Shown here: positions 47,444-48,298 of the stretch, in pieces
Layout: each line of letters starts with the position of its first letter
Position numbering within the stretch: position 1 is the first letter of the stretch
Source: Candidatus Omnitrophota bacterium
GTDB lineage: Bacteria > Omnitrophota > Gorgyraeia > 2-01-FULL-45-10
Assembly (NCBI GenBank): GCA_026387175.1
Contig: JAPLME010000008.1
Location: 77,091-141,090, forward strand
DNA length: 64,000 nt
Direction: 5' to 3'
The notes under the pieces: model-generated
Database searches by the model: none
What the model was told of the DNA's origin: nothing
The model's input: only the letters and a program-made list of their open reading frames with translations
Made by a program: the position numbers and the translations under genes

Positions 47444-48298
47444 ATGCATATGGCACGAACCGTGATGTTCCAGGGTAACGCGCTCACTCTTGTGGGCAGG
47501 ATAGCGAAGGTCGGAATGCGGGCCTCTGATTTCAAAGTCGTTTCACAGGAGATGAGAGATGTTAGCCTGTCCGATTTTAAGGGCAGGATAAAGGTGATAT
47601 CCTCATTTCCTTCGCTCGATACTCCTGTCTGCGATCTGCAGGTGAAGGAATTCAACAAGAGGGCTTCGGCGTTTTCTCAGGATGTAGTCGTTATAGGCAT
47701 ATCTAAGGACCTGCCTTTCGCGCAGAAGAGGTTCTGCAGCGAACATAATATAAATAACGAGCCGGTCCTATCCGATTACAAGACGTCCTCCTTCGGTATA
47801 AATTATGGGATGCTTATAAAAGAGCTGAATCTGCTGGCGCGTTCTGTGAGAATTATAGATAAGAACGACATCGTCCGCTATATCCAGTTAGCACCCGAGA
47901 TCACCAAGCCTTTAAATTATGATGACGCTGTCACGGCGCTTGATGAGGTCATGAAGAACCCGGCATCTGCCGTAAAGGAGGAACTGCCGTCTAAGTGTAA
48001 GCCGTGCGAGGGCATAGCGGCGCCTATTCCGAAAGCTGAAATCGAGAAGCTGGCTGCCCGGAACCCTTCCTGGGAGGTAATAGAAGGTAAGAAGATAGTG
48101 AAAGAATTCAAATTCAAAGATTTCCCGGAAGCTAAATATTTTCTTGATACCATTTCAGTGATTGCGGAAGAACAGGGCCACCATCCTACGCTTACTTTGA
48201 TGTATAATAAGCTTAAAATTACGCTCACGACTCGAGCCGCGGGAGGACTCACAGAAAATGATTTTATAATGGCCGGTATTATAGACGGCATGCTTTGA
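47444..48298 (+). CDS. fusion of thiol peroxidase (Tpx) with a pterin-4a-carbinolamine dehydratase (PCD/DCoH) domain
   Basis: The N-terminal ~165 aa are Tpx (SFPSLDTPVCDLQ). The C-terminal ~95 aa align with PCD, including FKFKDF...EEQGHHP...YNKLKITLTT against the PCD consensus F.F.DF...E...HHP...YN.V.I.L.TH. Confidence 0.75.
   Translation: MHMARTVMFQGNALTLVGRIAKVGMRASDFKVVSQEMRDVSLSDFKGRIKVISSFPSLDTPVCDLQVKEFNKRASAFSQDVVVIGISKDLPFAQKRFCSEHNINNEPVLSDYKTSSFGINYGMLIKELNLLARSVRIIDKNDIVRYIQLAPEITKPLNYDDAVTALDEVMKNPASAVKEELPSKCKPCEGIAAPIPKAEIEKLAARNPSWEVIEGKKIVKEFKFKDFPEAKYFLDTISVIAEEQGHHPTLTLMYNKLKITLTTRAAGGLTENDFIMAGIIDGML

What the first reader, a model, noticed from the sequence alone, without database searches (positions are those of the whole stretch)
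47444..48298. Thiol peroxidase fused in frame to a pterin-4a-carbinolamine dehydratase (PCD/DCoH) domain
The N-terminal 165 aa are an unambiguous Tpx with the peroxidatic Cys in SLDTPVC. After a short Cys-containing linker (CKPCEG), the last ~95 aa align closely with PCD, including FKFKDF...EEQGHHP...YNKLKITLTT. The HHP motif is the PCD active-site signature. Standalone Tpx is ~165 aa and PCD ~100 aa, so this is a genuine two-domain fusion in this sequence. I am not aware of a described Tpx-PCD fusion. The PCD fold also serves as a protein-binding module (DCoH), so it could be a dimerisation or partner-recruitment domain here. It sits inside an Rrf2-headed redox/detox island.
Basis: seen in the sequence. 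Interest (0 to 1): 0.6.

Follow-up and report, generated by a model that had tools for sequence, protein, structure and literature searches.

The report
Conserved thiol peroxidase–pterin dehydratase fusion
A peroxide-destroying enzyme (Tpx) is genuinely fused to a pterin-recycling enzyme (PCD) in this bacterium and in hundreds of related anaerobes; nobody seems to have described the fusion, and it hints that PCD has an oxidative-stress role in organisms where its purpose has been unclear.

Summary
Window 47444/47450..48298 (+) is one uninterrupted ORF of 284 or 282 aa. It encodes a complete atypical 2-Cys thiol peroxidase (Tpx) followed by a pterin-4a-carbinolamine dehydratase (PCD) domain, and both pass curated HMM thresholds. 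It is not an assembly artefact: the identical gene occurs in independent sequencing runs, and full-length orthologues exist in at least 80 species genomes and more than 220 protein clusters. Most are Omnitrophota; some are anammox Planctomycetes and a few other anaerobes. Databases call them only "thiol peroxidase", and I found no paper on the fusion.

- The CKPCEG "linker" is the normal N-terminal CxxC segment of this bacterial PCD clade (88 of 100 standalone relatives have it).
- Across 231 fusions both active sites are 97–100% conserved and the PCD core is more conserved than Tpx, which argues for a working dehydratase rather than a mere binding module.
- This strain is a rare exception: the third catalytic His is Arg (CGA against CAT in its nearest relative).

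The gene follows hcp within an Rrf2-headed O2/ROS/NO defence island that also encodes a Grx-like/TrxR-like pair, the probable Tpx reductant. No pterin genes are nearby. The PCD domain's substrate remains inferred.

The parts
47450..48298 (+). Tpx-PCD fusion gene. 282 aa from ATG 47450; the alternative upstream ATG at 47444 gives 284 aa. Residue numbers in this report use the 284-aa frame.
   Evidence: ORF; domains; identical 282-aa database protein P0001; identical DNA in three other runs.
47450..47953 (+). Tpx (atypical 2-Cys thiol peroxidase) domain, residues 3-170.
   Evidence: NF001808 at 179 bits, above the cut-off of 123. PDB Tpx hits with E-values from 5e-38. Foldseek TM-scores normalised to target of 0.75-0.88 against solved Tpx structures.
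47630..47632 (+). Codon TGC for Cys63, the peroxidatic Cys in DTPVC.
   Evidence: Aligns with the peroxidatic Cys of solved Tpx. Cys in 228 of 231 fusions.
47735..47737 (+). Codon TGC for Cys98, the resolving Cys in KRFC.
   Evidence: Aligns with the resolving Cys of solved Tpx. Cys in 226 of 231 fusions.
47954..47995 (+). True inter-domain linker, about residues 171-184. Its sequence varies but its length is constrained.
   Evidence: pLDDT 65-71 in the model. There are 18 residues between L166 and C185 in 209 of 231 sequences, with a mean majority frequency of 0.58.
47996..48295 (+). PCD (Pterin_4a / COG2154) domain, residues 185-284, including its native N-terminal CxxC (C185, C188).
   Evidence: Pfam PF01329 at 91.8 bits. 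NCBIfam PCD models align from residue 183. PDB PCD/DCoH hits at about 1e-12. CxxC present in 88 of 100 standalone relatives.
48179..48187 (+). Codons for His246-His247-Pro248, the HHP catalytic motif.
   Evidence: Aligns with HHP of solved PCDs. Conserved in 230, 228 and 231 of 231 fusions respectively.
48233..48235 (+). Codon CGA for Arg264, at the position of the third catalytic His of PCD.
   Evidence: Aligns with the His in 'lsTH..GLT' of 2v6s, 1dch and 1ru0. His in 225 of 231 fusions and 98 of 100 standalone PCDs. The nearest relative has CAT.
44785..45219 (+). Rrf2-family regulator with a C-x6-C-x5-C motif; head of the island.
   Evidence: Pfam Rrf2 at 110 bits. Found upstream and co-directional in many of the 80 related loci; 32 loci have a homologue within the flanks.
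45224..47435 (+). Fer4 protein (45224-45880), Zn-ribbon protein (45877-46128) and hybrid-cluster protein Hcp (46125-47435). The hcp stop codon lies 8-14 nt before the fusion's start.
   Evidence: Pfam; sequence; conserved in 20-24 loci.
48389..52993 (+). Ferredoxin (48389-48574), 2-oxoacid:ferredoxin oxidoreductase alpha and beta (48590-51105), flavin reductase-rubredoxin (51107-51802) and flavodiiron protein (51806-52993).
   Evidence: Pfam; POR domains recorded for the orthologous genes; conserved in 25-44 loci.
53018..54148 (+). Ferritin-like protein (53018-53500) and superoxide reductase (53753-54148).
   Evidence: Pfam Ferritin and Desulfoferrodox.
54859..56000 (+). Glutaredoxin-like redoxin with CPFC (54859-55095) and thioredoxin-reductase-like flavoprotein with CATC (55095-56000). 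This pair is the probable electron supply for the Tpx domain.
   Evidence: Pfam Glutaredoxin and Pyr_redox_2. The same pair lies in the cluster in 34-35 of 80 loci. The electron-donor role is inferred.

Best explanation
This is a real, widely conserved bifunctional protein of anaerobes. SHOWN: a complete atypical 2-Cys thiol peroxidase (Thr60, peroxidatic Cys63, resolving Cys98, Arg133) is joined by a linker of constant length to a PCD domain of the CxxC-bearing bacterial clade. The gene is probably co-transcribed with hcp, since only 8-14 nt separate them. It lies in an Rrf2-headed island devoted to O2, ROS and NO defence: Hcp, flavodiiron protein, superoxide reductase, ferritin-like protein, Grx-like and TrxR-like proteins, and Ogg. 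INFERRED (peroxidase half, about 0.85): the Tpx domain reduces H2O2 or organic hydroperoxides. Its Cys63-Cys98 disulfide is then re-reduced by the island's NAD(P)H -> TrxR-like -> Grx-like chain. INFERRED (PCD half, about 0.3-0.35): at family level the PCD domain is a working dehydratase. Under the same oxidative stress it removes 4a-hydroxy adducts of reduced pterins or folates, regenerating quinonoid dihydropterin and avoiding dead-end rearrangement. The fusion would exist because the two activities are needed together, possibly in sequence, with a hydroperoxide reduced to a carbinolamine and then dehydrated. In this strain the third catalytic His is Arg, so its dehydratase is probably weakened or altered, while the peroxidase half is intact.
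For: - Continuous ORF and both domains above curated thresholds.
- Identical DNA in three independent runs and the identical protein on 7 contigs.
- All 120 best protein relatives and all 80 best GTDB loci are full-length fusions.
- Catalytic residues across 231 fusions: Cp 228, Cr 226, Arg 227, His1 230, His2 228, Pro 231, His3 225, Asp 230.
- The PCD core is more conserved than Tpx (majority frequency 0.85 against 0.76), and the linker length is fixed at 18 residues in 209 of 231.
- Motif-dead variants are isolated singletons: relatives of P0144 keep the motif.
- The AF2 model has pLDDT 86.5 and pTM 0.79, which is high for two domains on a flexible tether.
- The neighbourhood is co-directional and dominated by oxidative-stress genes. 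Loci with each family, out of 80: FDP 44, Grx-like 35, FNR-like 35, PNPOx-like 34, TrxR-like 34, Rrf2 31, rubrerythrin-like 29, SOR 27, DJ-1 25, Hcp 24.
- The window itself carries the Grx-like/TrxR-like pair.
- PCD has previously been assigned a role outside aromatic amino acid hydroxylation, in Moco metabolism (table in PMC3223725).
Against: - None of the 34 commonest neighbour families is a pterin, folate, Moco, dihydropteridine-reductase or aromatic amino acid hydroxylase gene, so context says nothing about a pterin substrate.
- All NCBIfam PCD equivalog models score below their cut-offs.
- The window's own copy lacks His3. A few other fusions have lost one or both active sites and still keep the architecture.
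- PCD is fused to many unrelated partners: LOG, SRPBCC, Maf and tRNA_bind.
- No activity data exist. No coordinates or PAE were available to verify an inter-domain interface.
- I did not survey whole genomes for hydroxylases or standalone PCD or Tpx genes.
Confidence: 0.5

Rival explanations
1. The PCD domain is a non-catalytic structural module, like DCoH, RAF2 or acRAF. It oligomerises the Tpx dimer into a higher-order assembly or docks a partner such as a reductase, a regulator or another island protein. Its pterin-site residues would be conserved for binding or structure rather than for dehydration.
For: - PCD-fold proteins are known binding modules: DCoH-HNF1 chains among the PDB hits and a weak hit to acRAF 4low; RAF2 lacks PCD activity (PMC5972614).
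- The window's copy has His3 replaced by Arg yet is otherwise intact and was recovered unchanged in several samples.
- Sporadic fusions lacking PCD or Tpx catalytic residues keep the architecture.
- PCD is fused to many unrelated domains and occurs as tandem repeats.
- The constant linker length and pTM of 0.79 suggest a fixed quaternary or tertiary arrangement.
Against: - His1, His2, Pro, His3 and Asp are 97-100% conserved in 231 fusions, as in catalytically competent standalone PCDs (96 of 100 carry the full motif).
- Known non-catalytic PCD-like proteins have lost this motif.
- Motif-dead fusions are singletons, not lineages.
- No candidate partner is consistently adjacent. DJ-1/PfpI is the commonest gene immediately downstream, but only in 23 of 77 loci, and it is absent here.
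Confidence: 0.3
2. The two enzymes are independent and fused only for co-expression or mutual protection. PCD is reported to be inactivated by H2O2, so a tethered peroxidase could keep the local peroxide level low and protect the dehydratase, which would serve ordinary pterin or Moco metabolism. There would be no sequential chemistry between the two sites.
For: A review states that H2O2 can inhibit PCD under oxidative stress (PMC9737128). Both active sites are conserved. The fusion always lies in an oxidative-stress cluster.
Against: The statement about H2O2 sensitivity concerns human PCD in vitiligo, not bacterial enzymes. It does not explain why a housekeeping pterin enzyme would be placed under a stress regulon. 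No pterin genes are nearby.
Confidence: 0.15
3. The fusion is an artefact: a frameshift, a missed stop codon or a chimeric assembly has joined two adjacent genes.
For: None found.
Against: There is no stop or frame change in 47444-48298. The DNA is identical in three other sequencing runs. Full-length fusions appear in 80 species genomes and more than 220 protein clusters from NCBI, JGI, ENA and Logan. The linker length is conserved.
Confidence: 0.01

Closest known systems
Thiol peroxidase Tpx (p20/scavengase; atypical 2-Cys peroxiredoxin; E. coli, B. subtilis and Aquifex structures 1qxh, 2jsy, 2yzh)
   Same: The N-terminal 165-170 residues match end to end at 38-45% identity. They carry the T-x-x-C peroxidatic motif, the resolving Cys about 35 residues later and the conserved Arg. 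The sequence passes the NCBIfam equivalog cut-off, and the predicted fold superposes on solved Tpx.
   Different: Characterised Tpx proteins are standalone and about 165 aa. This one carries a C-terminal PCD domain of about 100 aa. The likely reductant is a Grx-like/TrxR-like pair rather than classical thioredoxin (inferred from context).
Pterin-4a-carbinolamine dehydratase PCD/DCoH/PhhB (COG2154, PF01329; structures 1dch, 2v6s, 2ebb, 3jst)
   Same: The C-terminal 100 residues align over the whole Pfam profile. They have E-x3-HHP, the aromatic residue and the Asp, plus the N-terminal CxxC typical of the nearest standalone bacterial PCDs.
   Different: It is fused to a peroxidase. There is no aromatic amino acid hydroxylase or Moco gene in the neighbourhood. 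In this strain the third catalytic His is Arg. It scores below every NCBIfam PCD equivalog cut-off.
Peroxiredoxin fusion enzymes: Thermotoga Prx-nitroreductase (PDB 4eo3) and, from my own knowledge, the Haemophilus Prx5-glutaredoxin hybrid PGdx
   Same: A peroxiredoxin domain is covalently joined to a second enzyme domain in an anaerobe or microaerophile defence context. 4eo3 appears among the fold hits.
   Different: In those cases the partner is an electron-transfer domain that feeds or complements the peroxidase. Here the partner is a dehydratase with no redox cofactor, so the logic of the fusion must differ.
Clostridium pasteurianum Cp34/Cp9/Cp20 and Thermotoga Grx-like/TrxR peroxiredoxin-reducing systems (from my own knowledge, not checked here)
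   Same: A TrxR-like flavoprotein and a small glutaredoxin-like CxxC protein are encoded beside a peroxiredoxin in an anaerobe, as in this island.
   Different: The peroxiredoxin in those systems is AhpC- or Bcp-type and unfused. Electron transfer to this Tpx-PCD has not been tested.
Non-catalytic PCD-like proteins: plant RAF2/SDIRIP1 and carboxysomal acRAF (PDB 4low)
   Same: They have the same fold and show that it can serve as a protein-binding or assembly module.
   Different: They have lost the catalytic motif and are linked to Rubisco. The fusion family keeps the motif in 97-100% of members and has no Rubisco context.

Membership tests
Tpx (atypical 2-Cys thiol peroxidase) | Score above the curated family threshold over the full length of the model | tested here: met
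   NF001808 scores 179.3 bits against a cut-off of 123, with residues 6-167 on profile positions 3-166 of 167.
Tpx (atypical 2-Cys thiol peroxidase) | Peroxidatic Cys in a T-x-x-C motif, plus the conserved active-site Arg | tested here: met
   D-T60-P-V-C63 and R133 align with solved Tpx structures. They are conserved in 226-228 of 231 fusions.
Tpx (atypical 2-Cys thiol peroxidase) | Resolving Cys on the same chain, about 34 residues after the peroxidatic Cys (E. coli C61/C95) | tested here: met
   C98 in KRFC aligns with the resolving Cys of 2jsy, 2yzh and 2xpd. Cys in 226 of 231 fusions.
Tpx (atypical 2-Cys thiol peroxidase) | Thioredoxin-fold peroxiredoxin structure | tested here: met
   AF2 model with pLDDT above 90 over most of the domain. 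Foldseek TM-scores normalised to target of 0.75-0.88 against Tpx structures.
Tpx (atypical 2-Cys thiol peroxidase) | Thiol-dependent peroxidase activity | not testable with these tools
   This needs an enzyme assay. A Grx-like/TrxR-like pair in the island is a candidate reductant.
PCD (COG2154 / Pfam Pterin_4a) | Domain HMM above the gathering threshold | tested here: met
   PF01329 scores 91.8 bits against a cut-off of 26, with residues 194-281 on profile positions 2-89 of 91.
PCD (COG2154 / Pfam Pterin_4a) | Complete catalytic signature: acidic residue-x3-H-H-P, an aromatic residue, the third His and the Asp. The motif is as defined by Naponelli et al. 2008, recalled from memory because the paper was not held. 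| tested here: not met
   The window protein has E242, H246, H247, P248, Y254 and D273, but Arg264 where solved PCDs have His. At family level the feature is met: His in 225 of 231 fusions.
PCD (COG2154 / Pfam Pterin_4a) | NCBIfam equivalog thresholds for 4a-hydroxytetrahydrobiopterin dehydratase | tested here: not met
   The best results are 80.3 bits against 137 (NF002019) and 74.7 bits against 80 (NF002017). All five models score below their cut-offs.
PCD (COG2154 / Pfam Pterin_4a) | Genomic association with an aromatic amino acid hydroxylase or with Moco genes | tested here: not met
   There are none among the 34 most frequent neighbour families within plus or minus 8 kb in 80 loci. Whole genomes were not examined.
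PCD (COG2154 / Pfam Pterin_4a) | 4a-hydroxytetrahydropterin dehydratase activity | not testable with these tools
   This needs an enzyme assay or the PhhA-dependent E. coli complementation test.
Non-catalytic PCD-like modules (RAF2 / acRAF / pure DCoH function) | Loss of the catalytic motif together with a defined protein partner (Rubisco or HNF1) | tested here: not met
   The motif is retained in 97-100% of family members. There are no Rubisco or carboxysome genes in the neighbourhoods. The hit to acRAF 4low is only weak, at E = 1.6e-4.

The most novel reading that the evidence does not exclude
Tpx-PCD is a dedicated two-step repair enzyme for reduced pterins or folates damaged by O2. Candidate substrates are tetrahydrofolate or 5-methyl-THF of the Wood-Ljungdahl pathway, molybdo- or tungstopterin precursors, and H4MPT. 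The Tpx site would reduce the 4a-hydroperoxide adduct to the 4a-carbinolamine. The tethered PCD site would then dehydrate it to the quinonoid dihydro form for re-reduction. This would prevent both H2O2 release and irreversible ring rearrangement. If true, it would give the first physiological rationale for PCD in anaerobes that lack aromatic amino acid hydroxylases, and a new substrate class for peroxiredoxins.
Probability: 0.15. Interest if true: 0.8.

Novelty: new variant of a known kind. Interest (0 to 1): 0.45.

Why it matters
Both halves are textbook enzymes. Their fusion is strictly conserved across hundreds of uncultured anaerobes (Omnitrophota, anammox bacteria), always lies inside an oxygen-stress regulon, and is hidden under the annotation "thiol peroxidase". 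It is a Rosetta-stone-type hint that peroxide reduction and pterin-carbinolamine dehydration are functionally linked.

Why PCD genes occur in organisms without aromatic amino acid hydroxylases has been open since the COG2154 survey of 2008, when a Moco-related role was proposed. This fusion offers a concrete and easily cloned test case. It also corrects annotation, because the PCD half is currently ignored. Finally, it supplies a natural His3-to-Arg variant, this window's strain, for structure-function work.

Tried and rejected
- **Frameshift or chimeric assembly:** rejected, because the DNA is identical in independent runs and orthologous fusions are widespread.
- **CKPCEG as a fusion-specific redox relay or linker:** rejected, because the CxxC is present in 88 of 100 standalone PCD relatives. 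What this CxxC does in PCDs remains unknown to me.
- **PCD-dead fusions as stable lineages,** which would have favoured a purely structural role: a search with P0144 showed that its relatives keep the motif.
- **The FNR-like neighbour as a dihydropteridine reductase completing a pterin cycle:** considered, but it lies directly upstream of the flavodiiron gene in most loci, and in the window it is replaced by a flavin reductase-rubredoxin. It is therefore more simply the FDP's reductase.
- **Pterin, Moco or hydroxylase genes in neighbourhoods:** none found.
- **Literature searches** for the fusion, for Pfam names and for an anammox thiol peroxidase returned nothing relevant.
- **Naponelli et al. 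2008** could not be read, and a search for mutational data on the PCD histidines found nothing usable.
- **Model coordinates and PAE** are not exposed, so the inter-domain interface could not be examined.
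Full report

Window 47444..48298 on the + strand is one open reading frame of 284 aa with no internal stop.
- Pfam places Redoxin/AhpC-TSA on residues 22-160 (83.8 bits) and Pterin_4a on residues 194-281 (91.8 bits). Both are far above their gathering scores.
- The NCBIfam thiol peroxidase equivalog NF001808 scores 179.3 bits against a cut-off of 123 and is covered end to end.
- Solved Tpx structures match residues 2-169 at E-values from 5e-38. Solved PCD/DCoH structures match residues 198-281 at about 1e-12.
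- The likelier start codon is ATG 47450 (MARTV...). The identical database protein and the family consensus begin there, and a GAGAGG Shine-Dalgarno sequence sits 6-7 nt upstream.

**2. Is it an artefact?**

No.
- The identical 282-aa protein is recorded on 7 contigs. Three of them, from different sequencing runs, are 100% identical in DNA to window 46450-49298.
- All 120 best relatives in the 5.8-billion-protein collection are 281-301 aa and carry both domains.
- A scan of one genome per GTDB species found 383 relatives, and the best 80 are all full-length fusions. Most are Omnitrophota MAGs. Others are Ca. Jettenia and Ca. Loosdrechtia (anammox), bins labelled Planctomycetales, and one Margulisiibacteriota bin. 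Protein hits add Spirochaetales and Deltaproteobacteria MAGs.
- Sources name these proteins only "thiol peroxidase", "lipid hydroperoxide peroxidase" or "thioredoxin-dependent peroxiredoxin".

**3. Anatomy and conservation**

I aligned 231 fusion proteins. Counts of the canonical residue at each key position:

| Domain | Position | Conserved in |
|---|---|---|
| Tpx | Thr60 | 226 of 231 |
| Tpx | peroxidatic Cys63 | 228 of 231 |
| Tpx | resolving Cys98 | 226 of 231 |
| Tpx | Arg133 | 227 of 231 |
| PCD | His246 | 230 of 231 |
| PCD | His247 | 228 of 231 |
| PCD | Pro248 | 231 of 231 |
| PCD | third His (position 264) | 225 of 231 |
| PCD | Asp273 | 230 of 231 |

- The PCD core (mean majority frequency 0.85) is more conserved than the Tpx domain (0.76).
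- The segment between the domains varies in sequence (0.58) but is 18 residues long in 209 of 231 proteins.
- An AlphaFold2 model built on 112 sequences has mean pLDDT 86.5 and pTM 0.79, with lower confidence only in residues 171-190.
- Foldseek matches the N-terminal half to solved Tpx structures, with TM-scores normalised to target of 0.75-0.88. No solved structure has the two-domain architecture.

**4. The "Cys-containing linker"**

I searched 1.84 billion cluster representatives exhaustively with residues 170-284 and aligned the hits. Of the 100 nearest standalone PCDs (150 aa or shorter), 88 carry both cysteines at the aligned positions. The NCBIfam PCD models also align from residue 183. 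The CxxC is therefore the native N-terminal segment of this PCD clade. The true linker is the variable stretch before it, about residues 171-184.

**5. This strain's copy is an exception**

- Arg264 (codon CGA, 48233-48235) aligns with the His of the "lsTH..GLT" segment in 2v6s, 1dch and 1ru0.
- That position is His in 98 of 100 standalone relatives and 225 of 231 fusions.
- The nearest relative (P0002, 89% amino-acid and 86.6% nucleotide identity) has CAT, which is two substitutions away. The CGA codon is reproduced in three other runs. It is therefore a real variant.
- From my own recollection of the DCoH mutagenesis literature, which I could not check here, this His is one of three catalytic histidines. 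The dehydratase of this strain is therefore probably weakened or altered.

Other sporadic exceptions exist:
- P0144 has HYP and Arg at the third His.
- P0241 has YDP.
- P0124 has lost the Tpx peroxidatic Cys.
- P0140 has lost both active sites.

A search with P0144 showed that its relatives P0271-P0277 keep the full motif. These are isolated losses, not stable lineages.

**6. Genomic context**

The gene starts 8-14 nt after the hcp stop codon, and I found no terminator-like site on the + strand in between. The island in the window reads as follows:

| Window coordinates | Gene product |
|---|---|
| 44785-45219 | Rrf2 regulator (C-x6-C-x5-C) |
| 45224-45880 | Fer4 protein |
| 45877-46128 | Zn-ribbon protein |
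| 46125-47435 | Hcp |
| 47450-48298 | Tpx-PCD |
| 48389-48574 | ferredoxin |
| 48590-51105 | 2-oxoacid:ferredoxin oxidoreductase alpha and beta |
| 51107-51802 | flavin reductase-rubredoxin |
| 51806-52993 | flavodiiron protein |
| 53018-53500 | ferritin-like protein |
| 53753-54148 | superoxide reductase |
| 54152-54796 | HAD hydrolase |
| 54859-55095 | glutaredoxin-like protein (CPFC) |
| 55095-56000 | TrxR-like protein (CATC) |
| 55997-56701 | Ogg glycosylase |

I clustered all flanking ORFs from the 80 loci without reference to the window. The commonest neighbour families, as the number of loci out of 80, are:
- FDP, 44
- Grx-like, 35
- FNR-like, 35
- PNPOx-like, 34
- TrxR-like, 34
- Rrf2, 31
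- rubrerythrin-like, 29
- SOR, 27
- OFOR, 25
- DJ-1/PfpI, 25
- Hcp, 24

Nearly all are co-directional. None of the 34 commonest families is related to pterin, folate, Moco, dihydropteridine reductase or aromatic amino acid hydroxylases. The gene immediately downstream is DJ-1/PfpI in 23 of 77 loci, and that gene is absent from the window.

**7. Other architectures**

Among the 150 best representatives of the PCD search:
- At least eight further 50%-identity clusters are Tpx-PCD.
- Two are Rhodanese-Tpx-PCD (P0127, P0174).
- One has an extra helical N-terminal domain before Tpx-PCD (P0165).
- PCD is also fused to LOG, SRPBCC, Maf and tRNA_bind domains, and it occurs as 2x and 4x tandem repeats.

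PCD is thus a promiscuous fusion partner, which tempers any pathway-specific reading.

**8. How it most likely works**

- **Shown:** a conserved two-domain protein with both active sites under purifying selection, encoded in an O2/ROS/NO defence operon.
- **Inferred with good confidence (about 0.85):** the Tpx half is a working peroxidase, recycled by the island's TrxR-like/Grx-like pair. From memory, this resembles the Clostridium pasteurianum Cp34/Cp9 and Thermotoga Grx-like/TrxR systems.
- **Inferred with modest confidence (about 0.3):** the PCD half is, at family level, a working dehydratase needed under the same stress. The simplest chemistry is removal of 4a-hydroxy adducts of reduced pterins or folates.
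- **The most novel version (probability about 0.15):** the two sites act in sequence, with hydroperoxide reduced to carbinolamine and then dehydrated to the quinonoid dihydro form.

The main rival, at about 0.3, is a DCoH-like structural or partner-binding role. Supporting it are precedent, the sporadic active-site losses including this strain's, the promiscuity of the domain, and the fixed linker length. Opposing it is the near-invariance of the catalytic motif.

A third idea, at about 0.15, is that the peroxidase merely shields an H2O2-sensitive PCD. It rests on a statement about the human enzyme (PMC9737128).

**9. Comparison with what is known, and novelty**

- **Membership in Tpx** is met on every sequence and structure criterion I tested.
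- **Membership in the PCD fold family** is met. However, the window protein fails the full catalytic signature and all NCBIfam equivalog cut-offs, so it should not be named a 4a-hydroxytetrahydrobiopterin dehydratase without an assay.
- **Precedents and open questions.** Peroxiredoxin fusion enzymes are known, for example 4eo3 Prx-nitroreductase, but their partners are redox domains. A role for PCD beyond aromatic amino acid hydroxylation, in Moco metabolism, has been proposed (PMC3223725).
- **Prior description.** I found no paper describing a Tpx-PCD fusion. The library does not cover subscription journals, and the architecture is of course visible in domain databases.

I rate it a new variant of a known kind. 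The architecture is real, widespread and unstudied, its parts are ordinary, and the functional link between them is intriguing but unproven.

Noticed in passing
window 39121-44739 (+): A giant 1872-aa ORF directly upstream of the island. It has only short Pfam matches: a starch-synthase GT5/phosphorylase-like stretch at residues 417-695 and an alpha-amylase catalytic domain at residues 1179-1365. Most of its length is unassigned.
   Followed up: partly
window 44785-47435 (+); also L006, L012, L016, L031, L052, L056, L078 and L080 among others: Rrf2, a 218-aa Fer4 protein, an 83-aa Zn-ribbon protein and a short Hcp travel together as a conserved unit in 20 or more loci. The Hcp is 436 aa, and its best stretch covers only Prismane profile positions 162-512.
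   Followed up: partly
P0127, P0174, P0165 (no window coordinates): Three-domain relatives exist. P0127 and P0174 are Rhodanese-Tpx-PCD. P0165 has an N-terminal helical domain of about 150 aa, with no Pfam hit, placed before Tpx-PCD.
   Followed up: partly
P0210, P0145, P0255, P0232, P0130, P0121, P0193, P0217: PCD domains of the same CxxC clade are fused to LOG (Lysine_decarbox), SRPBCC (Polyketide_cyc), Maf and tRNA_bind domains. They also occur as 2x and 4x tandem repeats. In the 4x protein (P0121) the third His is Asp in all four repeats.
   Followed up: partly
L003, L008, L009, L013, L019, L020, L026, L027, L030, L043 and others, immediately after the fusion gene: A DJ-1/PfpI gene lies directly downstream of Tpx-PCD in 23 of 77 loci, including the anammox loci. 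It is absent from the window, where a ferredoxin and a 2-oxoacid:ferredoxin oxidoreductase follow instead.
   Followed up: no
window 55997-56701 (+): An 8-oxoguanine DNA glycosylase (Ogg-HhH, 183 bits) overlaps the stop codon of the TrxR-like gene. A DNA-repair gene therefore closes the oxidative-stress island.
   Followed up: no
window 58701-60992 (+): A 763-aa ORF with a predicted N-terminal hydrophobic segment and no Pfam match at E <= 1e-4.
   Followed up: no
window 48312-48340 (+): A promoter-like site (TCGAAA, 17-nt spacer, TATAAT, with a TG extension; 10 of 12 matches) in the 90-nt gap between Tpx-PCD and the ferredoxin gene. It could be an internal promoter for the downstream half of the island. 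The number of such sites in the region is no higher than in shuffled sequence.
   Followed up: no
window 51107-51802 (+): A flavin reductase fused to a C-terminal rubredoxin, directly upstream of the flavodiiron gene. In many related loci an FNR-like FAD/NAD oxidoreductase occupies this position instead, which suggests interchangeable reductase partners for the FDP.
   Followed up: partly
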